From a virus (taxonomy: Duplodnaviria; Caudoviricetes), in the IMG/VR virus record IMGVR_UViG_3300030060_001517, positions 1 to 56,203 of that record: a stretch of DNA of 56,203 nucleotides; one strand, given 5' to 3'. This document shows positions 35,233-48,469 of the stretch, piece after piece (position 1 is the stretch's first letter; each line of letters begins with the position of its first letter). The notes under the pieces are model-generated. The model had not been told where the DNA came from. It searched no databases and saw only the letters and a program-made list of their open reading frames with translations. Both the position numbers and the translations under genes were made by a program.

Positions 35233-35502
35233 ATGAGCGAATGGAAAATAGATAAAAATATAACCACAACATTTTTATTAGGATTAGGCATACAAGCATT
35301 TGCTATCGTATGGTCATTTTCTATGATGATGTCAACTATTAATGATCATGAAGAAGACATTGCTCAAATTCAAGAAAGATTAATTAAATTAGAAGACGCA
35401 GTTCAACTTCAAGCAGTTACTTCTGCTAGAATTGATGCTAATATTGAAGCTATTAAAGATACTGTAGAAGACATATCTGATAATATGGGAGAAATAAAAT
35501 GA
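35233..35502 (+). CDS. Single-TM coiled-coil protein (holin/antiholin-like)
   Basis: W.IDK.I, TM helix, then a heptad coiled coil; AAGGAG RBS. Confidence 0.65.
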   Translation: MSEWKIDKNITTTFLLGLGIQAFAIVWSFSMMMSTINDHEEDIAQIQERLIKLEDAVQLQAVTSARIDANIEAIKDTVEDISDNMGEIK

Positions 35503-35960
35503 TTAGTTTATTAGGATCGTTACTCGGTTTTGGCACATCTTTTTTGCCAAGTGTTTTAGGGTTCTTTGAAAAGAAAGCAAAATTTAAACAAGACTTACTT
35601 ATGCTTGAAGCAAAAGCAAAATATGCTGAGCAAATGTCAAAATATAAAATACAAGAGTTAGATGCTGAAGCAGATATTGCAGAAGCAAAAGCTATCTATG
35701 CTCATGCTGAACAACTTGCTAAAAATAATTCTTCTAAATTTATTGGCGCATTACAAGCATCAGTCAGACCTGTTATCACATACTTATTATTTTCTGTATT
35801 TGCTTTTGTTAAAGTTACACAAGTTATCATGGCAGTTAAGAGCGGTGGGGATGTTTTAGAAGGTATTGTTGCTGCATGGGATTTAGAAACTCAAGCTATG
35901 TTTAGTGCTGTTATAGCATTTTGGTTTGGTAATCGCATGATGAAATCAGCTAAAAAGTAG
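35499..35960 (+). CDS. Holin, GTA 3TM-like
   Basis: LLGSLLGFGTSFLP, ASVRPVITY and AVIAFWFGNR motifs; basic tail. Confidence 0.7.
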   Translation: MISLLGSLLGFGTSFLPSVLGFFEKKAKFKQDLLMLEAKAKYAEQMSKYKIQELDAEADIAEAKAIYAHAEQLAKNNSSKFIGALQASVRPVITYLLFSVFAFVKVTQVIMAVKSGGDVLEGIVAAWDLETQAMFSAVIAFWFGNRMMKSAKK

Positions 35961-36020
35961 CTAAAAACAAAGAATTTACAAAAATAATTAAAAATAATTA
36001 AATTATTTTTAAAAAAGGGC

Positions 36021-36100
36021 TTTACTTTTTCAATGAAGTATGCTATAGTAATTATGTTGGGTTGGGAAATTCAACATTTTAATAACTTAATAACTTATAA
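36021..36100 (+). promoter_or_regulatory. Strong early promoter with leader hairpin and TAACTTATAA box
   Basis: TTTACT-N17-TATAGT with extended TG; A/T-rich UP tract; ATGTTG/CAACAT hairpin; TAACTTATAA at 36091-36100. Confidence 0.8.
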
Positions 36101-36105
36101 CAAGG

Positions 36106-36666
36106 ATGAATAAAATGATTAAATTAAATAAAGTAACTAAAGAACAAGTAGCTGAAGCATTAAGAGTGTTATTAGAAAAGCAAGTAGAGATTGCTAACAG
36201 ACCTAATAAACCTTATGACCCATCTGAGAATGATTGGATTAAAGAAATGGATGCAAGGGAGAGAGGTGAAGAACCATTCCAGCATGTTACCCAGCAAAGA
36301 TGGAATTTTTATAAAGCAGAAGTTGGTAATCCTTTTGACATGAGAGATGAGATTATCGATGTTTGTAAAAACCCACCACAACCTGAAATTGAAGAAGTTG
36401 TGGTTAGAGTAAAACAAGATGAATTTTTAGAAACAGAAATACATGTTGGTACAAAATCTAAATATTCAAGATATGATTATTTTCAAGTAGTAGAATATGA
36501 AGACGGTGCCATTAATATTTATTTAAGAGACATGGGTTACGATTTATTTAACATGGAAGATGGCGGTTTAACTGAAAATTTCATGGCAGCTTTAAAACCT
36601 CTTGAAACTGATGACCAATATTTTGAATGGGTTAATAATTCAAATATTAGCATTAACAATAATTAA
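36106..36666 (+). CDS. Hypothetical early protein
   Basis: First ORF after the promoter; acidic; no recognised motif. Confidence 0.75.
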   Translation: MNKMIKLNKVTKEQVAEALRVLLEKQVEIANRPNKPYDPSENDWIKEMDARERGEEPFQHVTQQRWNFYKAEVGNPFDMRDEIIDVCKNPPQPEIEEVVVRVKQDEFLETEIHVGTKSKYSRYDYFQVVEYEDGAINIYLRDMGYDLFNMEDGGLTENFMAALKPLETDDQYFEWVNNSNISINNN

Positions 36667-36701
36667 TAACTTATAACAGGGAGAGGGGACGAAAGTCCCC
36701 T
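36667..36701 (+). promoter_or_regulatory. TAACTTATAA box followed by a GAAA-tetraloop hairpin
   Basis: TAACTTATAA 36667-76; AGGGGAC-GAAA-GTCCCCT 36684-36701, between the SD-like sequence and ATG 36710. Confidence 0.6.
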
Positions 36702-36709
36702 ATTAAAAA

Positions 36710-37147
36710 ATGAAACTATATTATAACAGTAAAGGTCAATGGGCAGGTAATCAAGATGATGCGAAAGCATTCGGTTTACCATTTGAGCAATGTGATGTTC
36801 CTTATGATAAAAAAGGTCTATTAGAATTCTTAAATGAAAATGCTGTAAAATCTACTAATGCTTCTGCAGGAAATATTGATCCTGTGATAATCAAAAGTGG
36901 TAACACTATTAGTACACCTCTTTCTTATGTTAAAGATGAAGTAGGTGTTACTGAAATACAAAACATTTATGATAATTTAAGAAGTTTGTATGTCACAAGT
37001 GAGATGGCATTCAAAGCAGCAAGTCATATTATGAGCAAATTAGGTCATATAAGTGATCAAACAGAATTGTTAAAAGATGAATGTTTTGAAGAAATTGATA
37101 ACTACTTAAAAATGAATGCTAAAATAGATGGAGATAAAAATGAGTAA
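36710..37147 (+). CDS. Hypothetical early protein
   Basis: MKLY...G.WAG.Q.DA....DVP.DK.GLLEFLN N-terminal motif. Confidence 0.75.
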   Translation: MKLYYNSKGQWAGNQDDAKAFGLPFEQCDVPYDKKGLLEFLNENAVKSTNASAGNIDPVIIKSGNTISTPLSYVKDEVGVTEIQNIYDNLRSLYVTSEMAFKAASHIMSKLGHISDQTELLKDECFEEIDNYLKMNAKIDGDKNE

Positions 37148-37676
37148 GATAAACTATATTAAATCTGAATATTTTGGTTCTTGGGTAATGAGGTGTAATG
37201 GATTAGAGCAACATGATCTAACTCCTAAACAGTTTTTGAAACATTTTAATTCATTCCACAACTTACCTGCTGATACAGAAGTGCCTAGGGATTTTAAAAG
37301 AGCAAAATTAAATCATCTGCTGAATACTGAATGTTGGTATTCAGCAGACGGTAAATATAAAGTCGCTAAAGCTATTTGTAAATATGGTGACTGTAATTTT
37401 GTTGTTCATAAAGAAGGTTGGGAAATTATTTGGCTATCAATTAGAATTAATAATGGCGAAGATCATTTAAGAGATTGGAGAGACTTCCAAGAAATTAAAA
37501 ATGATCTAGCTGGTAGAAATCGTGAAGCGGTAGAAGTATATCCTGACGAAAATAAATTAGTAGATGAGGTTAACACTTACCATCTATGGGTCTACCCAGA
37601 AGGATTTGAAACTCCTATGGGATGGACTGACAGAAGTGTACAAGAAGACAATGGTGAAGACCAGAGGAGAATTTAA
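37140..37676 (+). CDS. Conserved phage hypothetical protein
   Basis: WLSIR...WRDFQEIKN.L.G...EAVEVYP....LVD..N.YHLW motif; GGAG RBS. Confidence 0.8.
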   Translation: MSKINYIKSEYFGSWVMRCNGLEQHDLTPKQFLKHFNSFHNLPADTEVPRDFKRAKLNHLLNTECWYSADGKYKVAKAICKYGDCNFVVHKEGWEIIWLSIRINNGEDHLRDWRDFQEIKNDLAGRNREAVEVYPDENKLVDEVNTYHLWVYPEGFETPMGWTDRSVQEDNGEDQRRI

Positions 37677-37689
37677 TTAAAAATAATCC

Positions 37690-37735
37690 TTTACTTTTTA
37701 AAAATGATAAACTATATTAAAAATATAACTTATAA
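37690..37735 (+). promoter_or_regulatory. Promoter (TTTACT...TATATT) with TAACTTATAA box
   Basis: Same -35 hexamer; box lies just before the GGAG RBS; coordinates approximate. Confidence 0.6.
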
Positions 37736-37747
37736 CTGGAGAATAAA

Positions 37748-38356
37748 ATGAATAAATTTGAAACAATTGAATATGAAGATATCCACACCGAAGAGGGTCT
37801 GTTAGATCTATGGATTAAAAATAATCCTGAAGATTATAAATGGCTCACTGACAATGCACCAGAAAATACTTTTGCTGCTAGTCTACTTTCTTTTCTGAAT
37901 ACACATAGTTACTTGACTGATAAACAGCACAAGTGTGTTAAAATGAATGTTTGTAAAGAACAGCCATTAGAAGTCAATTCATTAGAATTAGAAGAGAAAT
38001 TTAGGACAGCTAGGGAAAATGGTGTAAAATGGCCAAAAATAACCCTCGATAGCCTAAAGATTAAGATGGCTGGAGACAACAGCCGTAATCCAGGAGCTCT
38101 CTACGTCACTGAGCACGGTAATTATTACGGTAAAGTTTCACACGGAAAGTTTTATAAAGTCCCTGAGTGCTCCCCTGAGGCAGCCGAAAAAATACAAAAG
38201 TTGATTTCAGACCCTGAAATGACTGTAAAACGGTATGGCATAGAAACAGGGCAGTGTTGCATATGTAGTCGTACTTTAACAAATCCTGAGTCAATAAAAT
38301 TAGGTATGGGTCCTATCTGCCGTACTAGTTTTGGTTTCTCAGGTAGATTTATATAA
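37748..38356 (+). CDS. DUF6011-like Zn-finger protein
   Basis: FAASL...LTDKQ N-terminal motif; YG.ETG.CCICSR.LTNPESI..G.GPIC C-terminus. Confidence 0.8.
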   Translation: MNKFETIEYEDIHTEEGLLDLWIKNNPEDYKWLTDNAPENTFAASLLSFLNTHSYLTDKQHKCVKMNVCKEQPLEVNSLELEEKFRTARENGVKWPKITLDSLKIKMAGDNSRNPGALYVTEHGNYYGKVSHGKFYKVPECSPEAAEKIQKLISDPEMTVKRYGIETGQCCICSRTLTNPESIKLGMGPICRTSFGFSGRFI

Positions 38357-38366
38357 GGAGGATTAA

Positions 38367-38834
38367 ATGTTAAATTTTGAAAATATGAAGATGAAAGAAT
38401 TGGTTGATTATTATAATAGTTACGAAGGTAATAAACCTATTAAAAAGTTTCGTGATAAATCTACTGCTATAGCAAGATGTAAAAATTTATTACAAGCAGT
38501 TATAGAAGTAGAAGATGCTGGGTATCCTGCTGTAAAGAAAGACCTCACTGGTCAAGCATTAAGAAATAGAAATATGAGTGCGTCTTTACAGTTAGATAGA
38601 ACTATTATGGTTATGTGTCCTTATGTTGAAGAAGAAGGTGATGGAGGTTTTCTTAAAGAACCAGAACTTTCTGAATTCAATAATGTTCATCAAATGTGGC
38701 AGATACATCCTGAGTGGGTTACTGGTGCTCAAGTAGATAGATTAACTCGTATTCTTTACAGTAATGCTAAGCAAGGTAAAAGAGTAGAAGTTACTATCAA
38801 TGATAGAACTTTTATGTTAAAGAATGTGAGATAA
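38367..38834 (+). CDS. Hypothetical protein at the head of the modification operon
   Basis: AAGGAGG RBS; ELVDYYN...IKKFRDK.TA motif; TAATG overlap with the next gene. Confidence 0.78.
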   Translation: MLNFENMKMKELVDYYNSYEGNKPIKKFRDKSTAIARCKNLLQAVIEVEDAGYPAVKKDLTGQALRNRNMSASLQLDRTIMVMCPYVEEEGDGGFLKEPELSEFNNVHQMWQIHPEWVTGAQVDRLTRILYSNAKQGKRVEVTINDRTFMLKNVR

Positions 38835-39787
38835 TGAAATCTGTATTTGAAACATATTCCCTCAATAGAGAAGATATAAAATGGGAAAACCATTTATCTT
38901 CTCTAACCCCATGGGAGTTAAAGTCAGGAGTCTGGTTTAAAAGAGACGACTATTTTGCTCCCTTGGGGTACAGTGGTCCTAACGGATCAAAAATGAGACA
39001 ACTTATTTGGTATATAAATAGATTTAGAGAAGGTAAAAATCATATTGTGACTGGAGCATCTATTCAGTCACCTCAATTAAGTATGAGTGCTATAGTAGGT
39101 GCTCATTATGGTCTTAAAAATAGACAAGTAGTTTACAGCAAACCTCACACAGTTACAACTCATGTTAATCCTAAAATTGCTGCTGGTTTTGGCGCAGTGT
39201 TTGAATATGCTTCTGGTCCTTATAATCCTATCATTCAAAAAAGAGTAGCAGATTTAACTCAAGAAAATTCATTAGTAGTAGAATATGGTATAACAGTTCC
39301 TCATACTCGTTATCCTGCAGAAGATGTAAGAAAATTTCATGAGGTAGGTGCATATCAAACTTCTAATATGCCTGAGCAAGTAGAAAAATTAATAGTACCT
39401 GCTGGATCTTGTAACTCTTTAACAAGTGTATTATTAGGATTGAGCAGAGACTCTAAAAATTTAAAAGAGTTATTTACTATTGGTATAGGTCCTGATAAAA
39501 GAGATTGGGTCAATGAAAGATTAAAAATAATGGGAGTAGATCCTGAGTACTTTAATTTTAAATGGAACCATTATTCTTTACATGACAATAAGTATGCTTC
39601 TTATAGTGACAAATTTAAAGATGAAACATTTGAAGATATTATTTTTCATCCTACTTATGAAGCTAAGATGTGGAGATGGTTAAGAGAAAGAAATCCTTTA
39701 GACTTTGATGATAAAACAGCATTTTGGATAGTAGGTAGTGCTGCTGATACTAAAATAGTAGAACCTTTTTATACGGAGATAGACTGA
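38834..39787 (+). CDS. Fold-type II PLP-dependent enzyme (putative DNA amino-acid-adduct decarboxylase)
   Basis: WFKRDD...NGSKMRQ (PLP lysine), PAGSCNS phosphate loop, HPTYEAK; ACC deaminase/D-cysteine desulfhydrase-like; inside the hypermodification operon. Confidence 0.82.
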   Translation: MKSVFETYSLNREDIKWENHLSSLTPWELKSGVWFKRDDYFAPLGYSGPNGSKMRQLIWYINRFREGKNHIVTGASIQSPQLSMSAIVGAHYGLKNRQVVYSKPHTVTTHVNPKIAAGFGAVFEYASGPYNPIIQKRVADLTQENSLVVEYGITVPHTRYPAEDVRKFHEVGAYQTSNMPEQVEKLIVPAGSCNSLTSVLLGLSRDSKNLKELFTIGIGPDKRDWVNERLKIMGVDPEYFNFKWNHYSLHDNKYASYSDKFKDETFEDIIFHPTYEAKMWRWLRERNPLDFDDKTAFWIVGSAADTKIVEPFYTEID

Positions 39788-40554
39788 TGGTTATAACAAC
39801 AACCAAGTGGAAGATTTTAAATAAATATGATTTTGAATTACTACCAGGAGAAGCACAAAAGATGCCAGATGGTGATTACAGTTATTATCAATATTTAAAT
39901 AAAAGATGGCAAGAGACAGGTAAAAATGTTTTGTGTCAAGAATTCTTATTAGCTCCTCATAAAAGAAGCGATAATGCTAATGATTTGATTGTAGCTGAAC
40001 CATTTGGAGGATGCGGTGTGTTTTCTATAGCTATTCAACATTTGTTAAAACCTATGCATCATTATATAGGAGAGTTAGATGAAGATTGTGTAAGACAGTT
40101 ATATTTTTGCACTGCTTCTTATCCAGGAGTAACAGTCAGTCAAGAAGATGCTCATGAAAGATTAGGAGTTTTACCTGCAGATATTTACGTATGTGATTTT
40201 CCTTTCTTCACTTTAATAAAACATAGTGAACAAGATATGTGGGTTAAAGAAATGGAAAGAATGATTTCTCATAAACCTGAAGCTATCATTATAACTGATG
40301 GTTCAAGTTGCCGATGGCATTTCACTGCAAAGAATTTAAAGAAGAGAGGATATGATGTTAATCATCATCGAGAAAGTTATGCTAAAGTTTTTGACAAATA
40401 CTTTAAAGAAAAATATAATTATAGAGTAACTGCTGTAGCTTATCATGGTACATGTTTTTATATTAAAATACAACCAGCAGGATCGTATTTAGATAAAATA
40501 GCAATTAAACATATACCTGCAGGAGTAGGTATCAATGGGTTAAGACCGCAATGA
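39787..40554 (+). CDS. Class I SAM-dependent (amino-)methyltransferase-like protein
   Basis: VAEPFGGCG motif I, IGELD motif II, QEDA, and DIYVCDFPF as a DPPY-like motif IV. Confidence 0.7.
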   Translation: MVITTTKWKILNKYDFELLPGEAQKMPDGDYSYYQYLNKRWQETGKNVLCQEFLLAPHKRSDNANDLIVAEPFGGCGVFSIAIQHLLKPMHHYIGELDEDCVRQLYFCTASYPGVTVSQEDAHERLGVLPADIYVCDFPFFTLIKHSEQDMWVKEMERMISHKPEAIIITDGSSCRWHFTAKNLKKRGYDVNHHRESYAKVFDKYFKEKYNYRVTAVAYHGTCFYIKIQPAGSYLDKIAIKHIPAGVGINGLRPQ

Positions 40555-41552
40555 AAAATTATAAATTAACAGAAAATAGAAGAGAGTATTTTGATGCTCT
40601 TTACAAATTAAATTTAGAATATGGTATTATGCCTGGGTTGGTTTATTTATATATGCCTTCATTAGCTAAGCATTACTCTTGGAATAATGAAGACAAATTA
40701 TGGTTTTCTTTTTTAAATGGTATGACGCAAAATCCAATAACATCAATTCAATTATTAGAACAGTTACCTAGTGTTCCTCCTGCTGGAGCTACTCTTTCTA
40801 AATTTAATAACTGGTTTAATGATAATTGGGATATTTTAAAATATGATACTGATAGAAGATATCAAAAGAAAGATACTGTTGATGCTATTAAATCTTATGC
40901 TCAGATTTTATCTAATTATTCTTCTCAAGAAGAAATGCTTACTAATAGTTATAAAGAACTTTGGAACTTAGTAAGTAATAATTATAATTCTTTTGGTAGA
41001 TTATCTTCATTTAGTTATTTAGAATATGTTTATTTAAATGGTTTCGGTGCTGACTGTGATAATTTATTATTTGAAGATAAATCTGGAAGCAAATCACATC
41101 GTAATGGTATGATGATTTTACATGGAGCAGATAATTTTGTTTGGGATAAAAGAGCCAGGAATGAGTTTACTGGAGATTATCCTGATTTCAAAAAAGTATG
41201 TGATTGGTTAAATGAAGTTGCTACTCAACATTTAACTGAGTTTAAAAATAAACATCCTGATATTTCACATGTAGGTAATTTTACTTTTGAAAGTAATTTA
41301 TGTACATTTAAAAATCATTTCTTTGGCAGAAGATATCCTGGTGTTTATGCAGACATGGCATGGCAAAGAATTGAGTGGGCAGAAGAAAGAGGGATTGATA
41401 CTTCTATTTTTAAAAATATAAGAGAAGAACATTTACCTGATTGGTTAAGAATTGAATGTTCTAATTTAAAAGTAGATATCAATAAATTTGGTTCATTGTT
41501 TCAAGAACAAGGAACACCATTTAGAGGAGATAAATTTTTATGTCAAATATAA
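40551..41552 (+). CDS. aGPT-Pplase family protein (amino acid:DNA transferase-like, probably clade 3)
   Basis: RREYF, LWFSFLNG, DTDRRYQK, HhH-like FGRLSSFSYLE, GSKSHRNG, ESNLCTFK...RRYPGVY. Confidence 0.75.
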   Translation: MKNYKLTENRREYFDALYKLNLEYGIMPGLVYLYMPSLAKHYSWNNEDKLWFSFLNGMTQNPITSIQLLEQLPSVPPAGATLSKFNNWFNDNWDILKYDTDRRYQKKDTVDAIKSYAQILSNYSSQEEMLTNSYKELWNLVSNNYNSFGRLSSFSYLEYVYLNGFGADCDNLLFEDKSGSKSHRNGMMILHGADNFVWDKRARNEFTGDYPDFKKVCDWLNEVATQHLTEFKNKHPDISHVGNFTFESNLCTFKNHFFGRRYPGVYADMAWQRIEWAEERGIDTSIFKNIREEHLPDWLRIECSNLKVDINKFGSLFQEQGTPFRGDKFLCQI

Positions 41553-42127
41553 TACTTAGAATATGTGGAACTTTCGGCTCTGGTAAAACTACCGCAGTTA
41601 GAAAATTTTTAGAAGATTATCCTAATGAAACTTTATATGTAGAAAATAAAATAGCTGGTTATAAATTAGATTTAAAATCTGAAGATATAACTAAACCTGT
41701 TTTTGTTATAGGTAAGTACGACAATGTTTGTGGCGGAACAGACTCTATGGCTACTCAACAATTAATTGCTGATAGAATAATGCAAGCACATCCTCATGGA
41801 CATGTTATGTATGAAGGTGCTTTAGTTTCTGCTTCCGGATTAGGAGGTAAAGTCACTCAAGCAACTGAAGAAACAGGATGTACTGTTTATGCATTTTTAG
41901 ATACTCCAGAAGATTTATGTATTGAAAGAGTTAAACAAAGAAGATTAAATGCTGGAAATGAAAAAGAATTTAATCCTAAAAATTTAATAGATAAATTTAG
42001 GAGTGTTGCTAATTGTAAAAATAACCTTTTAGCAGCAAAATGCGCAGTAGCTGATTTAGATTATACTAACACGCATCCTACTTTATTAAACTTAATTAGA
42101 AATTTTGATCAAGGGAGATTTGAATGA
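41540..42127 (+). CDS. P-loop nucleotide kinase of base-modification clusters
   Basis: ICGTFGSGKTT, IGKY...CGGTD, YEG, FLDTP...C..RV..RR. Confidence 0.85.
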   Translation: MSNIILRICGTFGSGKTTAVRKFLEDYPNETLYVENKIAGYKLDLKSEDITKPVFVIGKYDNVCGGTDSMATQQLIADRIMQAHPHGHVMYEGALVSASGLGGKVTQATEETGCTVYAFLDTPEDLCIERVKQRRLNAGNEKEFNPKNLIDKFRSVANCKNNLLAAKCAVADLDYTNTHPTLLNLIRNFDQGRFE

Positions 42128-43047
42128 TACAAGATAGACCATATATTCCGCCTACTGCTAATAATGTTACTTCATTAAAGGCTTTGTTATATTTTGTTTG
42201 GGAAAGAGAAGCTATCCGTATAGCAAAAGAAAATAGGTATAATGGAGATCTAACTGATGATCCTATTTTGAAAAAATATAAATTCACTAACATCAGAAGA
42301 AAAGATGATCGTGTTAGTAAATGGATTATAGATAATATTATTCTTAATGTTGGTATAAATGAAAATAGTTTATGGTTCACTTTATTAATTGCTCGTTTAA
42401 TTAATTGGCCACCAACACTTCAGTATCTTCTTAATTGTGAAGAAAATATATTATTAAAAGACCCTAATAATTTTGATCCTAAAAGTTTTTCTGTAGCTAT
42501 AGAAAAATTTAGAGAAACAAACTCTAAAGCATATTCTGGTGCTTATATGGTTTACCCTACTAAAAAAGATGTAGGATCTGTTAAATCTTTATCTTTAGGT
42601 AATCATATTATTAAACCTGTTTTAGATATAGCAGAAGAAGTAGATTACATTTTATATACAGAAAATAGTATTGAAAAATTTGTTAATATTTTATCTAATT
42701 GTTTTGGTATAAGCACTTTCATTGCTGGGCAAGTAGCAGCAGATCTAACTTATTGTGAAGCACCATTATGCGATGCGTCAGATTTATATACTTATGCTCC
42801 AATAGGACCAGGAAGTTCTAAAGGATTAAATTATCTTTTTAATAGAAAACCTTACGCAACTTGGAAACAAGAAGATTTTAATGATCAGTTACAGATGATA
42901 AATGAACAAATTAAAGATGAGTTAGAAATAACTGATTTAACTTTACACGATGTTCAAAATGTAATGTGTGAATATAGTAAATATACCAGAACTTTATTAG
43001 GAGAAGGTAAACCTAAAACTATGTATAAACCAGAGGAGAGCTTTTAA
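42124..43047 (+). CDS. 5-hmdU DNA kinase (aGPT-Pplase1 / HMUDK helical domain)
   Basis: ERE.IR...DDPILKKYKFTNIRRKDDRVSKW, RLINWP, AYM, F.AGQ..ADL.Y, GPGS.KGL, QN.MCEYSKY. Confidence 0.88.
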   Translation: MIQDRPYIPPTANNVTSLKALLYFVWEREAIRIAKENRYNGDLTDDPILKKYKFTNIRRKDDRVSKWIIDNIILNVGINENSLWFTLLIARLINWPPTLQYLLNCEENILLKDPNNFDPKSFSVAIEKFRETNSKAYSGAYMVYPTKKDVGSVKSLSLGNHIIKPVLDIAEEVDYILYTENSIEKFVNILSNCFGISTFIAGQVAADLTYCEAPLCDASDLYTYAPIGPGSSKGLNYLFNRKPYATWKQEDFNDQLQMINEQIKDELEITDLTLHDVQNVMCEYSKYTRTLLGEGKPKTMYKPEESF

Positions 43048-44066
43048 TGGAACTTAGAGTAGAAAATGTAAATGAAGCATTTCAAGAAATATTATGGAAA
43101 TTTAAAGTACTTAATCTTGAAACAGAAGAAACTAGAAATGGACCAGCTTTAGTTTATCCAGAAATGGTAACAACTATTTATAGGTTTCCTGATGAAAGAG
43201 TTTTATTTCACCCTAAAAGAGATGCTAATCCTATATTTCATTTAATGGAAGCTATATGGATGATTGCAGGTAGAAATGATGTTGAGTTTGTAAATCAATT
43301 TAATAGTAATATGAAAAACTTTAGCGATGATGGAAAAGTGTTCAATGCTGCTTATGGTCATAGATGGAGAAAACATTTTGGTACCGATCAATTATTAGAT
43401 GTTATAAATTTATTAAAACAAGATATAAGCACTCGCCAAGCTGTTATTCAGATGTGGGATGCTGAAGATTTAGTAAAAGACACTTGTGATAAAGCATGTA
43501 ATACTCAGTTAATATTTGACACCAGGAACAATAAATTAAATATGACAGTGTTTAATCGTTCTAACGATGTTTGGTGGGGAGCATATGGTGCTAATGCTGT
43601 TCATTTTAGTTTCTTGCAAGAAGTGATAGCTAGAGCTATTGATTATCCTTTAGGAGAATACAGGCAAGTTTCTAATAATTTTCATTTTTATACTGAGTTA
43701 TATGATGCTATGAGTTTATTAGATAACCCTCCTAATGAACATTCACACAATCCTTACCATAATGGAGAAGTTTCATCTTTACCTATAATGGATAATAATG
43801 ATTATGCAGGGTTTATTTTAGATTGTGAACAGTTTTGCAAAGATCCTTTTGGTTTAGCTAATTTAGAAACTTATAAATTTAATCATAGTTTCTTTATGTC
43901 AGTAGCTCGTCCTATGGCTCTTATTTCACATATAAGAAAAAATAAAGATAATGACAGTAAATATTATGATGGTATGCTTCAAGCTAAAAGTATAAAAGCA
44001 CCTGATTGGCAAAGAGCATGTGTAGAATGGATAACCAGAAGAAATATGTTAGATGTTCCATTTTAA
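43047..44066 (+). CDS. Thymidylate synthase-family enzyme, probable dUMP hydroxymethylase
   Basis: TRNG, RDANPIFH..E..W, AYGHRW, TRQAV, catalytic DKACN, RSNDVWWGAYGANAVHF (Asn = dUMP specificity), NFHFY. Confidence 0.88.
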   Translation: MELRVENVNEAFQEILWKFKVLNLETEETRNGPALVYPEMVTTIYRFPDERVLFHPKRDANPIFHLMEAIWMIAGRNDVEFVNQFNSNMKNFSDDGKVFNAAYGHRWRKHFGTDQLLDVINLLKQDISTRQAVIQMWDAEDLVKDTCDKACNTQLIFDTRNNKLNMTVFNRSNDVWWGAYGANAVHFSFLQEVIARAIDYPLGEYRQVSNNFHFYTELYDAMSLLDNPPNEHSHNPYHNGEVSSLPIMDNNDYAGFILDCEQFCKDPFGLANLETYKFNHSFFMSVARPMALISHIRKNKDNDSKYYDGMLQAKSIKAPDWQRACVEWITRRNMLDVPF

Positions 44067-44084
44067 AATAATGAAAAATAAAAC

Positions 44085-44130
44085 TTGCTTTTTAATAAAA
44101 AATAAACGATACTATACGCATAACTTATAA
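44085..44130 (+). promoter_or_regulatory. Promoter-like element with TAACTTATAA box
   Basis: TTGCTT at 44085; TAACTTATAA at 44121-30 directly before AGGAG. Confidence 0.55.
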
Positions 44131-44144
44131 AGGAGAACTAACCA

Positions 44145-44642
44145 ATGAAAAAGACACTTGAATTTATATTAGATGGAGCAGCAGTTAAAAGATTTCATAC
44201 TGTTACTGTGCTTCATGAAGAAACAGTAGGGCATCATTCTCATAATGTAGCTATGATGTGTCTTCTACTTAACCCCAATGCTAGTAGAAATTTATTATTA
44301 GCAGCAATGTTTCATGATTTAGCTGAGCATAAAACAGGTGATATACCTTCTCCTGCAAAACGAGAATATAATATAACTGAACAAGTGACTTCTTTAGAAA
44401 GTGAGTTAATGGTAAAAGCAGGTATAAAACTTCCTGTGTTAACTGAAGAAGAGGAAAGAACTTTGAAGTTAGCAGACATAGCATCAGGTATGATATATTG
44501 TATTCAAGAAGCACAGATGGGTAATAATAAAATGTTAAAAATATTAAATACTTATTTAAAGTATACTAAACAATTTTTCTTATCAGGAAGAGAAGAAGAT
44601 TTATTTTGTCATATTGAAGAATTACAACTGGAAGGATTATAA
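44145..44642 (+). CDS. HD-domain deoxynucleotide phosphohydrolase (YfbR-like)
   Basis: VKRFH, ETVGHHS.NVA, HDLAE..TGDIPSPAK, LKLAD. Confidence 0.88.
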   Translation: MKKTLEFILDGAAVKRFHTVTVLHEETVGHHSHNVAMMCLLLNPNASRNLLLAAMFHDLAEHKTGDIPSPAKREYNITEQVTSLESELMVKAGIKLPVLTEEEERTLKLADIASGMIYCIQEAQMGNNKMLKILNTYLKYTKQFFLSGREEDLFCHIEELQLEGL

Positions 44643-44643
44643 A

Positions 44644-44946
44644 ATGTCAGCAAATAATAAACAGATAGGTGGTAATCATTATAAACATGACTCTGGAGAA
44701 GAACATTGGGATCGTGTTAATAGATTAAATCTAAGTTATTTTCAAGGATGCGCTACTAAATATATTGAAAGAGCATATTTAAAAGGTAAACCTGTAGAAG
44801 ATTTACAAAAGGCATCTCATTTTATTCAAAAATTAATTGAGATTGAACAAGAAAAAGAAGGTGAACCTACATCTTCTTATGTTAATCAAGATCCTGATCT
44901 TAAAAATGTATACAGTCAACTACCTTTATTTAAAGAGGAAAATTAA
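44644..44946 (+). CDS. DUF3310 / T7 gp1.7-like nucleotide kinase-family protein
   Basis: KQIGGNHYK, G.ATKYI.R, KG..EDLQKA.HFI..LIE. Confidence 0.8.
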   Translation: MSANNKQIGGNHYKHDSGEEHWDRVNRLNLSYFQGCATKYIERAYLKGKPVEDLQKASHFIQKLIEIEQEKEGEPTSSYVNQDPDLKNVYSQLPLFKEEN

Positions 44947-46772
44947 TGCATACTTGGGTCTTTGATACAGAAACATTACCTAATAGAACTTTATTAAGTG
45001 CTAAATGTATAGAGACTGGGGAATGGTTTGATGTTTGGAGACATGAAGAAAATGCAATAGATAAACTTTTAAATTTTGTTAATCAGCCACATACCTTTGT
45101 AGGTTTTAATTCTTTATCATTTGATAATATTGTAGTATCTGCATTTTGTGCTGGAAGAAAAGAACAAGAAATAAAAAGAATGGCAGACGATTTAATTCAA
45201 AATAGATTACCTTACTGGAAAGCATTTCCTAAATATCAGTTAAGAAAATACTTAAAAGATCATATTGATTTAATTGAAGTTGCTCCTTCATTTGTAGGCT
45301 TAAAAGCATATGGTGCTAGAATGCATATGACTACTTTACAAGATATGCCTTTATCTCATGATACTTATATAACTCCTGATCAAGAGCAACAAATATTAGA
45401 ATATTGTCATAATGATGTGTTAACTACTCAACAGCTTTTATTTAATTTAGAAAAAGAAATAATGTTAAGAGTAACTATGAGTAAAAAATATGGAGTAGAT
45501 TTAAGAAGTAAATCAGACTCTCAAATGGCAGAACAGGCTTATATAAAAACCATGGGCTTAAAAAGACAAAATAATACAATACCTGAAACTATAACTTACA
45601 ATCCTCCTTCTTTTTTACAATCATTTAAAGATCCTGTTTTGAAAAATTTATTATTAAGAATACAAAATCATACATTTATAATGAATAAAAAATCAGGTCA
45701 TGTTGTATTACCTGAGTTTTTAGGTAAAGCTACTATAAAATTTGGTAACGGAGAATATCAATTAGGTGTAGGAGGAATACATTCAGTTCATGATAAAAAA
45801 GTCTGTTACATTGCTGGTGATAAAATTATGGGTGAATTAGATGCTGCTTCATTTTATCCTTCTATTATTTTAGAATGTGGTTTCATTCCTAAAAGTTTAG
45901 GAGAGTCTTTTGTTGAAGAGTATCGTAATATTTATAATCAAAGATTAGAAGCAAAAGCATCTGGTGATAAAGCGACTAACGAAACATTAAAGATTAGTTT
46001 AAATGGTACTTTTGGTAAACTAGCAAGTAAATATAGTGTTCTTTATTCACCAGACTTGATGTTAGCTGTTACTCTTACAGGACAGTTAACCCTGTTACTA
46101 TTGATAGAAAAATTAGAAGATTTAGGAGTAGAAACTTTAAGTGCTAATACTGACGGCATAGCTATAAGATATGATAAAATTATACATGATCAAGTACAAA
46201 AAGAAATAGATAAATTTAGTAAGTTATCTAAATTTATATTTGAGTTTACTCCTTATAGAGTTTTAGCTATGAAAGATGTTAATAATTATATAGCAATTAA
46301 ACCAGATAAAACATTAAAAGTTAAAGGAATATACTCTCCACTCTCGCTTAGAAAAAATCCTACTGCTCAAGTATGCTCAGATGCCGTAGGAGAGTGGTTA
46401 GCTAAAGGTGTACCTTTCACAGAGACAATTTATAAAAGTCCTTTCTCAGGCTTTATATCAGCTCGTAATGTTACTGGAGGTGGACAACAAGATGGTAAAT
46501 ATTTAGGTAAGGTGGTCAGGTGGTATCAATCTACTGACAGTGTAGAGCCGATAAGATATTATACTAATAATAACAAAGTAGCTAAAACAGATGGAGCTAA
46601 AGCATGCATGACTGTTGAAGATTTTGTTACACATCCTACCGATTTAGATTATGATTGGTATTTAAAAGAATCAATTAAAATAGCAGTAGCTGTAGGTGGT
46701 TCTAATTTTTTAACAGACCATGAGCTAGAACTTATCACTCCTGCTCCTAAACAAAGGAAGAAAAAGAAATGA
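44946..46772 (+). CDS. Family B DNA polymerase with 3'-5' exonuclease
   Basis: FDTE ExoI, GFNS..FD ExoII, YC.ND ExoIII, DAASFYPS motif A, K...NG.FGK motif B, NTDG motif C. Confidence 0.93.
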   Translation: MHTWVFDTETLPNRTLLSAKCIETGEWFDVWRHEENAIDKLLNFVNQPHTFVGFNSLSFDNIVVSAFCAGRKEQEIKRMADDLIQNRLPYWKAFPKYQLRKYLKDHIDLIEVAPSFVGLKAYGARMHMTTLQDMPLSHDTYITPDQEQQILEYCHNDVLTTQQLLFNLEKEIMLRVTMSKKYGVDLRSKSDSQMAEQAYIKTMGLKRQNNTIPETITYNPPSFLQSFKDPVLKNLLLRIQNHTFIMNKKSGHVVLPEFLGKATIKFGNGEYQLGVGGIHSVHDKKVCYIAGDKIMGELDAASFYPSIILECGFIPKSLGESFVEEYRNIYNQRLEAKASGDKATNETLKISLNGTFGKLASKYSVLYSPDLMLAVTLTGQLTLLLLIEKLEDLGVETLSANTDGIAIRYDKIIHDQVQKEIDKFSKLSKFIFEFTPYRVLAMKDVNNYIAIKPDKTLKVKGIYSPLSLRKNPTAQVCSDAVGEWLAKGVPFTETIYKSPFSGFISARNVTGGGQQDGKYLGKVVRWYQSTDSVEPIRYYTNNNKVAKTDGAKACMTVEDFVTHPTDLDYDWYLKESIKIAVAVGGSNFLTDHELELITPAPKQRKKKK

Positions 46773-47122
46773 ATGATCAAAATGGAAATAGTAGAACAGT
46801 ATTTGTAGTTCAAGTAGATAACAATAAAGATCTATCAGATGCTAAACAGTATGGTAAACTTCAAGCTGTATTTGGTAATCCTCGTAAACCTTATGTTACT
46901 GATATGATGATAAATAAAGCTAGAAATGTTTTAGAAGCATGGCAAGATGGAGATTATTTATTAATGCTAGGAGATCCTACTTTATGTGGGGTTTGTATGG
47001 CTATTGCTTCTGAGTATACCGACAATGTAGATATTTTAAGCTGGGACCGTAACACTTTTAGTTATGTACCGCAAGAGTGGAACTTCGGTCAGCTAAGCAT
47101 GGATTTCGTAACGGCAGAGTGA
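46769..47122 (+). CDS. Conserved phage hypothetical protein
   Basis: VFVVQ...DLSDAKQYGKL...DYLLMLGDP motif. Confidence 0.8.
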   Translation: MNDQNGNSRTVFVVQVDNNKDLSDAKQYGKLQAVFGNPRKPYVTDMMINKARNVLEAWQDGDYLLMLGDPTLCGVCMAIASEYTDNVDILSWDRNTFSYVPQEWNFGQLSMDFVTAE

Positions 47123-47153
47123 CATCTGCCTCAATCAATGGAGGAAAACAAAA

Positions 47154-47915
47154 ATGTCAACTAAGAAAGAACCCAGTGGTGACTGGCAAAAAACATTAAG
47201 AAAAGGTAAGCAGAAAGTGCCACCAAGAATATGCATATATGGTAGTCATGGTATTGGTAAATCTACGATTGCTTCTCAATTTCCTAATCCTATTTTTATA
47301 AGTACTGAAGATGGGTTAGACAGTTTAGATGTAGTCAGCTTTCCTAAAGCAACTGAGATTTTAGATGTAGTAGATAATATCAAAACTCTCATAAAAGAAG
47401 ATCACGAATACAGAACTGTTGTAGTAGACACTGTTGACTGGTTAATTGAACCTTTAATTCAAAAGAGTGTTGATGACTCTCATGATGCTAAAGAACTGGC
47501 TTACGGTAAAGGTCAAATGTTAGTAGCTGAAGAGTTTAGAGAAATACTTCAAGGTTTAGATCATTTACGTATGAAAAAGAATATGAATGTAGTTTTAGTA
47601 GCACATTCTTCAGTAACTAAGTTTGAAGATCCTCGTACTGAACCTTACGATCGTTATGAGCCTAAACTACCTAAACGATGTAATGCTCTTTTACAAGAGT
47701 GGACTGATGTGATTGCTTTTTGTGCTTTTAAAATATTAATTAGAAAGAGCGACTCTGGTTTTAATAATACTAAAAACAGAGGGGTAACCACTGGGGAAAG
47801 ATTATTACATTTTATTGAAAACCCAGCATATGTTGCTAAAAATCGTTATCAATGTCCAGATGAAATTGAAATGACTATTGATAACCTTAAGAAAATAATG
47901 CCTATAACCGAATAA
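47154..47915 (+). CDS. AAA_24 / Sak4-like ATPase
   Basis: IYGSHGIGKST, TVVVDTVDWL, YGKG, VVLVAH, AKNRY; paired with an SSB. Confidence 0.9.
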   Translation: MSTKKEPSGDWQKTLRKGKQKVPPRICIYGSHGIGKSTIASQFPNPIFISTEDGLDSLDVVSFPKATEILDVVDNIKTLIKEDHEYRTVVVDTVDWLIEPLIQKSVDDSHDAKELAYGKGQMLVAEEFREILQGLDHLRMKKNMNVVLVAHSSVTKFEDPRTEPYDRYEPKLPKRCNALLQEWTDVIAFCAFKILIRKSDSGFNNTKNRGVTTGERLLHFIENPAYVAKNRYQCPDEIEMTIDNLKKIMPITE

Positions 47916-47926
47916 GGAGATATAAA

Positions 47927-48406
47927 ATGGCTAAATTTGGATTTGATACTGCGGAAATAGAAGTTAATACACCTGAAGATTTCTCACCTATACCAGAAGG
48001 AGAGTACACTCTTCAAGCATTAGAAGCAGAAGAAAAAGAAACTAACAATAAAAAAGGTACTTTGATAAAAGCAAAATTTGAAGTTGTGAAAGGACCTCAT
48101 ACTGGTAGATGGATTTGGGAAAATTTTAATATTAATAATCCTAGTGAAGTCGCACAAAGAATAGGTAGATCACAATTAGTGGCTTGGGCTACTGCTTGTG
48201 GTAAACCTGATGCAGATGATACTGATAAATTGATTGGTAAAACATTTCAAGCTACAGTAAAAGTAACTCCTGCAGAAAATGGATATGCAGAAAGTAATGC
48301 CATTAAATCGTTCTTATTTGACAAGAAGACAGAGCAGGTGGATCCCCAATCTCCTGTGAGTTCTTCAGAGGATAAAAAAGAAGAGAAAAGCAATCCTTGG
48401 GATTAA
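47927..48406 (+). CDS. DUF669-like single-stranded DNA-binding protein
   Basis: FSPIPEGEY, FEV..G...GR.IW...N, acidic tail ending PWD. Confidence 0.85.
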   Translation: MAKFGFDTAEIEVNTPEDFSPIPEGEYTLQALEAEEKETNNKKGTLIKAKFEVVKGPHTGRWIWENFNINNPSEVAQRIGRSQLVAWATACGKPDADDTDKLIGKTFQATVKVTPAENGYAESNAIKSFLFDKKTEQVDPQSPVSSSEDKKEEKSNPWD

Positions 48407-48415
48407 ATAAGAACA

Positions 48416-48457: not shown

Positions 48458-48469
48458 AGAGGGAATAAT

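What the first reader, a model, noticed from the sequence alone, without database searches (positions are those of the whole stretch)
38834..44946. Thymidine-hypermodification operon with an atypical enzyme set, a candidate new modified base
Seen: six genes joined by stop/start overlaps (PLP enzyme, SAM methyltransferase, aGPT-Pplase, P-loop kinase, aGPT-Pplase1, TS homolog with the dUMP-type Asn), followed by an HD hydrolase, a DUF3310 protein and PolB. Established: in phages M6, ViI, PhiW-14 and PaMx11, 5-hmdU is incorporated into DNA, phosphorylated by the aGPT-Pplase1 5-hmdU DNA kinase, substituted with an amino acid by an amino acid:DNA transferase, and tailored by PLP decarboxylases, radical SAM isomerases, flavin lyases or acetyltransferases. 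Inference: this genome replaces T with 5-hmdU and hypermodifies part of it. No radical SAM, flavin or acetyl tailoring gene is in the operon; a methyltransferase is there instead, which points to a different end product.
Basis: partly seen in the sequence, partly recalled or inferred. Interest (0 to 1): 0.92.

Follow-up and report, generated by a model that had tools for sequence, protein, structure and literature searches.

The report
Thymine-hypermodification operon with unannotated methyltransferase
An uncultured 56-kb phage carries the full enzyme set for decorating thymine in its DNA, plus an unannotated methyltransferase-like enzyme that travels with this pathway in other phages, so its DNA may hold a modified base not yet described chemically.

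Summary
Seven genes (38367-44066) are joined by 1-13 nt stop/start overlaps, followed by an HD hydrolase, a DUF3310 protein and a polymerase.

Homology identifies:
- a TS-family dUMP hydroxymethylase;
- a P-loop 5-hmdU DNA kinase, 34% identical to PaMx11 gp49;
- its helical aGPT-Pplase1 partner;
- an amino-acid:DNA transferase (ADDT) with the essential Glu/Cys;
- a PLP enzyme 35% identical to the ViI gp226 decarboxylase, with the PLP lysine aligned.

The whole complete genome has no radical-SAM, DAO-flavin or GNAT gene.

The 255-aa protein matches no Pfam, PHROG or NCBIfam model. It folds confidently as a class I SAM methyltransferase, and DFPF sits at the motif IV position.

Its relatives lie with an ADDT in 22 of 27 viral loci. 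Two distant members are fused to an ADDT or to a P-loop kinase. ViI and PaMx11 lack the family; cultured cyanophage Pam3 has a distant member.

Best reading: a ViI-like route (O-seryl-T, then aminoethoxymethyl-dU) followed by N-methylation. The product is inferred, not shown.

The parts
38367..38834 (+). 155-aa ORF of unknown function, translationally coupled to the PLP gene
   Evidence: Overlaps the PLP gene start by 1 nt. No Pfam hit; phrog_4730 at 2e-8 on residues 5-51 only. Found upstream of the PLP gene in relatives L003-L009 and L011 at 43-79% identity.
38834..39787 (+). Fold-type II PLP enzyme, probable decarboxylase of the amino-acid:thymine adduct (ViI gp226 type)
   Evidence: 35% identical to ViI gp226 (YP_004327553), E 5e-69, over residues 2-302. 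Lys53 aligns with gp226 Lys92, the proposed PLP lysine. 347 of 348 matching phage records cover at least 80% of the query; most are ViI-like phages. phrog_3650 at 4.7e-81.
39787..40554 (+). 255-aa class I SAM-methyltransferase-fold protein of an unannotated family (called MT255 here); proposed tailoring N-methyltransferase
   Evidence: No Pfam, PHROG, NCBIfam or PDB-sequence hit. AF2 model pLDDT 93.3. Foldseek returns 797 PDB matches at E<=0.001, and every listed top hit is a SAM methyltransferase. Motifs: EPFGGCG 71-77, GELD 95-98, DA 121-122, DFPF 137-140 directly after strand beta4. Synteny and fusions.
40551..41552 (+). Amino-acid:DNA transferase (ADDT / aGPT-Pplase clade 2)
   Evidence: PF18724 at 2e-16, 60.9 bits against a 26.2-bit cut-off. 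26% identical to ViI gp247 serine:DNA transferase, E 1e-26, with Glu247 and Cys251 aligned to the ViI Glu/Cys. Both residues are invariant in 17 of 17 relatives. The AF2 model's top three PDB hits are PaMx11 gp46, TM 0.50-0.57, probability 0.96-0.99.
41540..42127 (+). P-loop 5-hmdU DNA kinase (catalytic subunit)
   Evidence: 33.9% identical to PaMx11 gp49 (YP_009196302), E 1e-15; gp49 is a proven 5-HMUDK. Walker A motif GTFGSGKT. phrog_800 at 1e-19, matching profile positions 35-212 of 511.
42124..43047 (+). aGPT-Pplase1 / HMUDK helical domain protein, split from the kinase
   Evidence: PF18723 at 3e-41. It matches positions 292-418 of the same 511-position phrog_800 profile that the P-loop ORF matches at 35-212, so the two are fused in other phages. 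34% identical to Pam3_50 and 27% to PaMx11 gp50.
43047..44066 (+). Thymidylate-synthase-family enzyme, probable dUMP hydroxymethylase
   Evidence: PF00303 at 2.4e-20 and phrog_5131 at 1.1e-101. Best PDB match is the CMP hydroxymethylase MilA (7.5e-22), against about 4e-11 for E. coli ThyA. 38-45% identical over 97% of length to the TS homologues of PaMx11-, M6-like and Pam3 phages. All seven ThyA equivalog models score far below their cut-offs. Cys151 and Asn183 present.
44145..44642 (+). HD-domain 5'-deoxynucleotidase (YfbR-like)
   Evidence: PF12917 at 4.6e-14; NF003009 at 3.5e-8, below its cut-off. Same position as PaMx11 gp52 (33% identical) and Pam3_53.
44614..44946 (+). DUF3310 protein
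   Evidence: PF11753 at 5.5e-5, 23.6 against 24 bits. phrog_5839 at 2.6e-22. Also matches PHROGs labelled nucleotide kinase, e.g. phrog_236 at 1.3e-14.
44946..46772 (+). Replicative DNA polymerase
   Evidence: phrog_1252 at 5.8e-155. Weak DNA_pol_B_exo2 and DNA_pol_B_2 Pfam hits, below cut-off. Nearest cultured-phage polymerases are 38-39% identical.

Best explanation
The operon is a thymidine-hypermodification pathway that starts from 5-hmdU.

Inferred from homology:
1. The TS-family enzyme (43047) makes 5-hmdUMP from dUMP. The HD nucleotidase and DUF3310 protein help shift the nucleotide pool, and the phage polymerase incorporates 5-hmdU.
2. The P-loop kinase (41540), together with its split helical partner (42124), phosphorylates 5-hmdU in DNA to 5-PmdU.
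3. The ADDT (40551) uses Cys251 and Glu247 to replace the phosphate with an amino acid. The amino acid must be joined through its side chain, because the genome has no radical-SAM isomerase to free an alpha-amine. Serine, as in ViI, is the best guess.
4. The gp226-like PLP enzyme (38834, Lys53) decarboxylates the adduct to a primary amine, i.e. 5-(2-aminoethoxy)methyl-dU.

Proposed new step:
5. The 255-aa class I SAM-methyltransferase-fold protein (39787) methylates that tethered amine, giving an N-methylated aminoalkyl-thymidine.

What is shown here: gene content, catalytic residues, folds, synteny and fusions. Every chemical step is inferred.
For: Backbone synteny. The order ADDT, [tailoring genes], P-loop kinase, Pplase1, TS, HD, small protein, polymerase is the same as in PaMx11 gp46-gp55 and in Pam3. 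Only the tailoring genes differ.

Characterised homologues:
- Kinase to PaMx11 gp49: 33.9%, E 1e-15.
- PLP enzyme to ViI gp226: 35%, E 5e-69, Lys53 aligned with Lys92.
- ADDT to ViI gp247: E 1e-26, Glu/Cys aligned and invariant in 17 of 17 relatives. The ADDT model's top PDB hits are PaMx11 gp46.
- The TS is nearer to hydroxymethylases than to ThyA.

No alternative tailoring genes. The complete genome has no Radical_SAM, DAO or GNAT match. Lee 2021 showed that the PLP decarboxylase needs a free primary amine and that only N-alpha-linked glycine needs the radical-SAM isomerase.

Methyltransferase fold and motifs:
- Model pLDDT 93.3, with class I methyltransferase topology.
- DFPF lies immediately after beta4.
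- Gly75, Gly77, Asp171 and Tyr198 are invariant, and Asp137 is present in 44 of 47 wide-family members.
- Weak profile links go to N-directed enzymes. RrnaAD matches 13 of 47 members and TRM5/TYW2 matches 8 of 47.
- PDB profile hits at E 0.002-0.006 are Mtf1, KsgA, EEF2KMT and TYW2.
- The best TM scores are to the tRNA methyltransferase Trm1, 0.53-0.57.

Pathway linkage of the methyltransferase:
- An ADDT lies in the fetched locus in 22 of 27 IMG/VR loci that encode a relative, and elsewhere in the record for one more.
- The linkage holds in four gene contexts: a replication module, a form without a PLP gene, a form next to the terminase, and a form next to a Tet/JBP-ADDT fusion.
- Of 5 long family members scanned, one is fused to an ADDT and one to a P-loop nucleotide kinase.
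Against: There are no chemical data of any kind.

The methyltransferase belongs to no curated family. Its links to KsgA, Trm5 and Trm1 are weak: E about 1e-3 and TM about 0.5.

Motif IV is degenerate. Pro139 is kept in only 23 of 47 wide-family members, and the fourth position is usually not aromatic. The argument for N-methylation from the motif is therefore soft.

A complete relative (G001) has the methyltransferase without any PLP homologue, and 10 of 27 loci show no PLP gene. The enzyme therefore does not strictly need a decarboxylated substrate.

The ADDT's nearest cultured relatives are mycobacteriophage enzymes of unknown specificity (35%). ViI gp247 is only 26% identical, so serine is a guess.

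The hydroxymethylase-versus-synthase call for the TS rests on relatedness, not on a diagnostic residue.
Confidence: 0.55

Rival explanations
1. MT255 is a tailoring enzyme of this pathway but performs a different SAM-dependent reaction. Options are O-methyl esterification of the adduct's carboxylate, O- or C-methylation, or transfer of an aminopropyl or aminocarboxypropyl group as spermidine synthase or TYW2 do. The base would still be new, but not an N-methyl amine.
For: MT255 occurs without a PLP gene in a complete relative. That would fit action on an undecarboxylated adduct, for example neutralising the carboxylate. TYW2, an aminocarboxypropyl transferase, is among the fold and profile hits. 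A spermidine synthase appears among the viral fold hits at rank 22. Motif IV departs from the classical form.
Against: In the window a gp226-like decarboxylase is translationally coupled to the methyltransferase. If it acts first, no carboxylate is left; if esterification came first, decarboxylation would be blocked. The most frequent remote matches are N-methyltransferases. The near-invariant Asp137 after beta4 is the position that holds the target amine in amino-methyltransferases (recalled, not tested here).
Confidence: 0.2
2. The pathway simply makes the known ViI base, 5-(2-aminoethoxy)methyl-dU. MT255 would then be catalytically dead, regulatory or a DNA-binding scaffold, so there is no new base.
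For: The PLP enzyme and the ADDT are ViI-like. No SAM binding has been shown. Pseudo-methyltransferases such as Mtf1 are among the profile hits.
Against: The SAM-pocket motifs are strictly kept: Gly75 and Gly77 in 47 of 47, Glu71 or Asp in 47 of 47, Asp98 in 37 of 47, Asp137 in 44 of 47. The family has 445 cluster representatives at E<=1e-3. ViI itself lacks it.
Confidence: 0.1
3. MT255 is an ordinary nucleic-acid base methyltransferase (m6A or m4C on DNA, or an RNA methylase) that only happens to sit in the module.
For: Its remote similarity is to rRNA and tRNA methyltransferases. Phages often carry orphan DNA methyltransferases.
Against: It has no target-recognition domain and no hit to any DNA-methyltransferase Pfam family. 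It is linked to an ADDT in 22 of 27 loci across unrelated contexts and fused to an ADDT or a kinase in two proteins. It was not found in 185,579 species genomes by pattern scan, though that scan has limited sensitivity.
Confidence: 0.07
4. There is no thymine hypermodification: the TS homologue makes dTMP and the other genes have unrelated roles.
For: Only that the TS function is inferred. Asn183 fits dUMP as substrate for either reaction.
Against: Every component of the experimentally defined pathway is present, in PaMx11/M6 order and translationally coupled. The TS scores far below all seven ThyA equivalog cut-offs and is nearest to hydroxymethylases.
Confidence: 0.03

Closest known systems
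Salmonella phage ViI 5-NeOmdU pathway (gp67/gp243 kinases, gp247 serine:DNA transferase, gp226 PLP decarboxylase; Lee 2018, Lee 2021)
   Same: The PLP enzyme is 35% identical, with the PLP lysine aligned. The ADDT is 26% identical, with the essential Glu/Cys aligned. Neither system has a radical-SAM isomerase, which implies side-chain linkage and direct decarboxylation.
   Different: ViI has no member of the MT255 family. Its genes are scattered over a 157-kb myovirus genome, not joined in one coupled operon. The window's ADDT is closer to mycobacteriophage enzymes than to gp247.
Pseudomonas phages PaMx11 (5-AcNmdU) and M6 (5-NedU) hypermodification clusters
   Same: Same backbone order: ADDT, tailoring genes, P-loop kinase, aGPT-Pplase1, TS homologue, HD, small protein, polymerase. 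Identities are kinase 34%, TS 38-45%, HD 33%.
   Different: The tailoring genes differ: FAD lyase plus acetyltransferase in PaMx11, PLP plus radical SAM in M6, PLP plus MT255 here. The window's ADDT shows no tblastn similarity to PaMx11 gp46 at E<=0.01. PaMx11 lacks MT255.
Cyanophage Pam3 (cultured; DNA chemistry not found in print)
   Same: Best cultured match for the Pplase1 protein (34%). Syntenic cluster with a split kinase. Pam3_39, annotated hypothetical, belongs to the wider MT255 family: 92.3 bits, E 5.6e-28.
   Different: Pam3 also has a radical-SAM gene and an M6-type ADDT and PLP enzyme, neither detected by tblastn with the window's proteins. Its methyltransferase-like gene lies four genes upstream of the PLP gene and is only about 24% identical.
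Class I SAM N-methyltransferases acting on exocyclic or side-chain amines (KsgA/Erm RrnaAD, Trm1, RsmD, EEF2KMT)
   Same: Seven-stranded Rossmann methyltransferase fold. Motif I G-x-G-x-G, an acidic residue after beta2, D-A after beta3, and Asp-Phe-Pro-Phe after beta4.
   Different: No curated model is matched above threshold. The N-terminal beta-hairpin plus invariant helix (Y33, Y36, R40, E43-N47) and the C-terminal strands are specific to this family. The substrate would be a modified DNA base.

Membership tests
5-hmdU-based thymidine hypermodification pathway (Lee 2018/2021) | TS-family dUMP hydroxymethylase supplying 5-hmdUMP | tested here: inconclusive
   A TS-family protein with Cys151 and Asn183. 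It is nearest to MilA and to the TS homologues of PaMx11, M6-like and SPO1-like phages, and scores far below ThyA equivalog cut-offs. Activity cannot be read from the sequence.
5-hmdU-based thymidine hypermodification pathway (Lee 2018/2021) | P-loop 5-hmdU DNA kinase | tested here: met
   33.9% identical, E 1e-15, to PaMx11 gp49, a proven 5-HMUDK. Walker A motif present. The Pfam HMUDK_HMUD1 score is 25.2 against a 27-bit cut-off, just below.
5-hmdU-based thymidine hypermodification pathway (Lee 2018/2021) | Clade 2 aGPT-Pplase / ADDT with the essential Cys and nearby Glu | tested here: met
   PF18724 at 60.9 bits against 26.2. Glu247 and Cys251 align with ViI gp247 and are invariant in 17 of 17 relatives. 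The model's top PDB hits are PaMx11 gp46.
5-hmdU-based thymidine hypermodification pathway (Lee 2018/2021) | Hypermodified thymidine present in virion DNA | not testable with these tools
   The phage is uncultured and no nucleoside data exist.
ViI-type 5-NeOmdU route | gp226-type PLP decarboxylase with the Schiff-base lysine | tested here: met
   35% identical, E 5e-69. Lys53 aligns with Lys92.
ViI-type 5-NeOmdU route | Serine-specific O-linking ADDT | tested here: inconclusive
   Only 26% identical to gp247. Closer (35%) to mycobacteriophage ADDTs of unknown specificity.
ViI-type 5-NeOmdU route | No further tailoring enzyme, so the end product is the primary amine | tested here: not met
   MT255 is translationally coupled between the PLP gene and the ADDT gene. 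ViI has no homologue.
M6-type 5-NedU route | Radical-SAM glycinyl-thymine isomerase | tested here: not met
   No PF04055 match in the complete 56,203-bp genome, while the same search matched in 14 of 14 control genomes.
PaMx11-type 5-AcNmdU route | Flavin-dependent lyase and acetyltransferase | tested here: not met
   No PF01266 or PF00583 match in the genome.
Class I SAM-dependent methyltransferases | Rossmann-like seven-strand fold with motif I GxGxG and an acidic residue after beta2 | tested here: met
   Model pLDDT 93.3. 797 PDB matches at E<=0.001, and every listed top hit is a methyltransferase. EPFGGCG and GELD motifs present; Gly75 and Gly77 invariant.
Class I SAM-dependent methyltransferases | Membership in a curated sequence family | tested here: not met
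   Zero families for the window protein in Pfam, PHROGs and NCBIfam. Wide-family members give only sub-threshold RrnaAD (13 of 47) and TRM5/TYW2 (8 of 47) hits.
Class I SAM-dependent methyltransferases | Binds SAM and transfers methyl | not testable with these tools
   Needs biochemistry.
Amino-methyltransferases with a (D/N/S)PP(Y/F/W)-type motif IV | Motif IV directly after beta4 | tested here: inconclusive
   DFPF 137-140 follows strand 133-136. Across the family the pattern is D(44/47)-F(32)-[P 23/N 15]-x-F(27)-[T/S]. It resembles the motif but is not the canonical form. The canonical motif itself is recalled, not taken from a call.
Thymidylate synthase ThyA (equivalog) | Score above the NCBIfam equivalog cut-off | tested here: not met
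   The best score is 71.1 bits against a 174.55-bit cut-off. All seven TS models are far below their cut-offs.

The most novel reading that the evidence does not exclude
MT255 founds a family of 'tethered-amine' DNA-base N-methyltransferases. Like its nearest structural and profile neighbours, Trm1 and KsgA (both recalled to be dimethylating enzymes), it may methylate more than once. It would turn 5-(2-aminoethoxy)methyl-dU into an N,N-dimethyl or N,N,N-trimethyl form. The trimethyl form is a choline ether of 5-hmdU: a bulky, permanently cationic DNA base. The same enzyme family would cap whatever primary amine the local pathway produces. That would explain its presence in clusters with a PLP gene, clusters without one, Tet/JBP clusters and radical-SAM (Pam3) clusters, and the tandem paralogues in L015.
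Probability: 0.17. Interest if true: 0.85.

Novelty: new variant of a known kind. Interest (0 to 1): 0.72.

Why it matters
Thymidine hypermodifications protect phage DNA from restriction and other nucleases. The characterised tailoring enzymes I found are radical-SAM isomerases, PLP decarboxylases, flavin lyases and acetyltransferases (Lee 2021 abstract; section 21).

A SAM-methyltransferase-fold family that no curated library recognises would add a new tailoring chemistry. It is tied to the amino-acid:DNA transferase by synteny in 22 of 27 loci and by two natural fusions. It predicts at least one DNA base that has not been described.

Because the family has no Pfam model, Pfam-based censuses of these clusters would miss it. 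That is my inference, not something I tested.

The prediction can be tested directly with five small soluble proteins and 5-hmdU DNA. A cultured phage, Pam3, carries a distant member.

An enzyme that methylates a tethered amine on DNA could also be useful for labelling DNA or making it resistant to nucleases.

Tried and rejected
Searches that gave nothing useful:
- Megablast of the operon against 50,697 phage records: no match.
- tblastn of MT255 against the same records at E<=1e-3: no match.
- phmmer of MT255 against PDB sequences: only chance hits at E about 0.7 to ASFV E301R.
- phmmer of the ADDT against PDB sequences: nothing. The Pplase1 protein gave only chance beta-lactamase hits.
- The search for related loci with distant member P0100 on viral contigs: 7 pattern hits, none confirmed.
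- A1 on genome contigs: 149 pattern hits, none confirmed.
- The search for homologous proteins with lengths 'longer': none scored.

Other tests:
- Complex prediction of ADDT, SAM and MT255 gave no support (score 0.00). This is no evidence either way.
- Sigma-70-like sites in 35400-47200 are not above chance: 55 found against 63.5 +/- 8.3 expected.

Literature:
- Iyer et al. 2013 is not held.
- Searches, and term look-ups in Lee 2021, Lee 2018, the 2026 dapT paper and the Carin-5 paper, found no methyltransferase described as a thymidine tailoring enzyme.
- The 2026 T-dioxygenase paper lists O-methyltransferase and N6/N4 methyltransferase Pfam domains among the neighbours of 5mYOX genes, without assigning a function.
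Figure 2 of Lee 2021 and Dataset S10 of the 2026 paper, which I could not see, may show such genes.

Readings considered and rejected:
- M6-type route: no radical-SAM gene.
- PaMx11-type route: no flavin or GNAT gene.
- The ADDT as an aGPT-Pplase3: Pfam gives only ADDT for the window protein.
- The mycobacteriophage VioletZ cluster as a model: its genes 1 and 2 are not PLP or MT255 homologues.

Full report
**What is there.** The window is a whole virus record of 56,203 bp, which CheckV rates 100% complete. All long ORFs lie on the + strand. Between 38367 and 44066, seven ORFs are joined by stop/start overlaps of 1, 1, 4, 13, 4 and 1 nt. After a 78-nt gap come an HD hydrolase, a DUF3310 protein and a DNA polymerase, the last two again overlapping. 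One more coupled ORF, of 155 aa and unknown function, lies upstream.

**Identity of the known parts.** Pfam gives ADDT (PF18724, 2e-16) for 40551-41552, HMUDK_hel (PF18723, 3e-41) for 42124-43047, and Thymidylat_synt (2.4e-20) for 43047-44066. It gives YfbR-like HD for 44145-44642 and a just-sub-threshold DUF3310 for 44614-44946.

The P-loop protein 41540-42127 is 33.9% identical (E 1e-15) to PaMx11 gp49, YP_009196302. Lee 2021 lists gp49 as a 5-hmdU DNA kinase in Table 1 and reports phosphorylation of 5-hmdU DNA by the M6, ViI, PhiW-14 and SP10 homologues (sections 15 and 16 read).

The P-loop ORF and the HMUDK_hel ORF match positions 35-212 and 292-418 of one 511-position PHROG profile. The window therefore has a split kinase, as Pam3 does.

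**The TS homologue.** Its best solved relative is the CMP hydroxymethylase MilA (7.5e-22), against about 4e-11 for E. coli ThyA. It is 38-45% identical over about 97% of its length to the TS homologues of PaMx11, M6-like Pseudomonas phages, a Stenotrophomonas phage and Pam3. It is 39% identical over the core to an SPO1-like 'deoxyuridylate hydroxymethyltransferase'. T4-type td enzymes match at only 21-26%. It scores far below all seven NCBIfam ThyA equivalog cut-offs. Cys151 and Asn183 occupy the nucleophile and uracil-specifying positions. A dUMP hydroxymethylase is the best reading. No single residue proves it.

**The transferase and the PLP enzyme are ViI-like.** The PLP protein has no Pfam hit. 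It is 35% identical (E 5e-69) to ViI gp226 over residues 2-302, and Lys53 aligns with gp226 Lys92, the proposed Schiff-base lysine. Of the 348 phage records it matches, 347 cover at least 80% of it, and most are ViI-like phages of enterobacteria and vibrios.

The ADDT matches ViI gp247, the serine:DNA transferase, at 26% (E 1e-26). Glu247 and Cys251 align with the Glu/Cys pair that Lee 2021 showed to be essential. Both residues are invariant in 17 of 17 relatives. An AF2 model (pLDDT 86.6) has as its top three PDB matches the only solved ADDT, PaMx11 gp46, at TM 0.50-0.57 and probability 0.96-0.99, although E is only about 0.1.

The ADDT shows no tblastn similarity to PaMx11 gp46 or to the Pam3 ADDT. 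Its closest cultured relatives, at 35%, are cluster-B mycobacteriophage enzymes whose nucleophile is unknown. Serine is therefore a reasoned guess.

The reasoning is from Lee 2021, section 19. The PLP decarboxylase needs a free primary amine. N-alpha-linked glycine needs a radical-SAM isomerase first, while O-linked serine does not. The complete genome has no Radical_SAM match, and no DAO-type flavin or GNAT gene either. Each of these searches matched in 14 of 14 control genomes.

**The 255-aa protein.** It has no match in Pfam, PHROGs, NCBIfam or PDB sequences, and none in 50,697 phage records by tblastn. A word-indexed search found 28 relatives, all without a functional name and with no precomputed Pfam domain.

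With their alignment, AF2 gives pLDDT 93.3 and pTM 0.91. Foldseek returns 797 PDB matches at E<=0.001. Every listed top hit is a class I SAM methyltransferase: RlmCD, ChlM, Trm1 (TMq 0.53-0.57), TYW2, RsmD, TrmN and METTL5. BFVD contains two relatives labelled 'AdoMet_MTases domain'.

The motifs sit where the fold predicts:
- EPFGGCG after beta1;
- GELD at the end of beta2;
- D-A after beta3;
- DFPF (137-140) directly after beta4 (133-136).

A profile search of 1.84 billion cluster representatives finds 445 members at E<=1e-3 and 208 at E<=1e-10, nearly all about 210-270 aa long. In a 47-member sample, Gly75, Gly77, Asp171 and Tyr198 are invariant and Asp137 is present in 44 of 47. Motif IV reads D-F-[P/N]-x-F-[T/S].

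Remote links point to N-directed enzymes but are weak. RrnaAD matches 13 of 47 members (best 1.9e-4) and TRM5/TYW2 matches 8 of 47. Mtf1, KsgA, EEF2KMT and TYW2 match at E 0.002-0.006.

**Is it part of the pathway?** Yes, with good confidence. Of 82 pattern matches in IMG/VR, 27 loci encode a relative. In my tblastn map of those loci:
- 22 of 27 have an ADDT in the fetched stretch;
- 17 of 27 have the PLP gene;
- 16 of 27 have the Pplase1 gene;
- 16 of 27 have the TS gene.

Of the five loci without an ADDT, two end within about 0.5 kb after the methyltransferase gene. One (L026) has an ADDT elsewhere in its record. The records of the other four are 9-45% complete.

The association holds in four different settings:
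- the window-type replication module (L002-L009, L011, L013, L014);
- a form without a PLP gene (L016, L018, L019, L021, L022);
- a form next to the terminase (L012, L027);
- a form in which a Tet/JBP-ADDT fusion supplies 5-hmU (L028).

Five unusually long family members were scanned. P0146 (609 aa) carries an ADDT domain and P0045 (348 aa) a P-loop nucleotide-kinase domain behind the methyltransferase domain. The other three had no further domain.

The family profile hits cultured cyanophage Pam3 (Pam3_39, 'hypothetical protein', 92 bits). It does not hit ViI, PaMx11 or VioletZ: 1 of 4 records.

**What argues against the simple story.** The complete relative G001 (54,769 bp, terminal repeats) has the methyltransferase, ADDT, kinase, Pplase1 and TS but no PLP homologue. 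The enzyme therefore cannot depend strictly on a decarboxylated serine adduct.

One way to reconcile this is that it methylates whatever free amine the local pathway leaves. ADDTs that load putrescine or 1,3-diaminopropane directly are known (Lee 2021 Table 1; passages of the 2026 NAR paper). A carboxyl or other target is a live alternative. Motif IV is not canonical, and no curated family claims the protein.

**Mechanism proposed.** The steps are: dUMP to 5-hmdUMP (TS homologue); incorporation into DNA; 5-PmdU (P-loop kinase plus helical partner); a side-chain-linked amino-acid adduct, probably O-seryl-T (ADDT); an aminoalkyl-T, probably 5-NeOmdU (PLP enzyme); and an N-methylated product (MT255). 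The steps up to the PLP enzyme follow characterised homologues. The last step is new and inferred.

**Novelty.** This is a new variant of a known kind of system. In the main texts I could search, no methyltransferase is described as a thymidine-tailoring enzyme. One 2026 census lists methyltransferase Pfam domains near phage T-dioxygenases without assigning a function. Supplements were closed.

A first-reader note elsewhere in this scan (e1-6337523) reports the same arrangement in another genome. I did not examine that DNA.

Noticed in passing
window 40391-40419 (+): A perfect sigma-70 consensus, TTGACA-17-TATAAT, lies inside the 3' end of the methyltransferase gene, about 130 nt upstream of the ADDT start. 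It is the only one in the window; 0.06 are expected, and 5 of 100 shuffles have at least one. Among the related loci it is kept at the equivalent place only in the 95% relative L002 (L029 is the window's own DNA).
   Followed up: partly
window 51981-52628 (+): A 2OG-Fe(II) oxygenase (phrog_81, 4.6e-35) lies 7 kb downstream, between a DNA-binding protein and the helicase. Whether it acts on DNA or on the modified base is unknown.
   Followed up: no
L015:856-1575 and L015:1578-2312: Two tandem paralogues of the methyltransferase (45% and 55% identical to the window's) sit directly upstream of the ADDT. No PLP gene is present in this 11-kb fragment.
   Followed up: partly
L028:3801-5789: A 662-aa protein fuses a Tet/JBP dioxygenase domain (sub-threshold, 2e-5) with an ADDT domain (1.1e-14). 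It is followed by a methyltransferase relative and a PLP gene. This would be a TS-independent version of the same tailoring trio.
   Followed up: partly
L034 (Mycobacterium phage VioletZ) 1-5206: The closest cultured ADDT (35%) sits in the order gene 1, gene 2, ADDT, 'adenylate kinase', terminase. By eye, gene 1 looks ParB-like and gene 2 dioxygenase-like, which would fit the ParB-dependent T-dioxygenase systems described in 2026. Neither was scanned against a family library.
   Followed up: no
L035:2104-2730 (Pam3_39): A cultured cyanophage gene annotated 'hypothetical protein' belongs to the methyltransferase family (90.7 bits against the family profile). It lies four genes upstream of the Pam3 PLP / radical-SAM / ADDT cluster. 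I found no paper on Pam3 DNA chemistry.
   Followed up: partly
window 46769-49773 and 52664-56202: The replication module follows the polymerase: a Pam3_gp32-like protein, an AAA_24 ATPase, a DUF669 protein, a Cas4/PD-(D/E)XK nuclease and a RuvC-like resolvase. Further on are a helicase and a primase whose frame runs off the record end.
   Followed up: no
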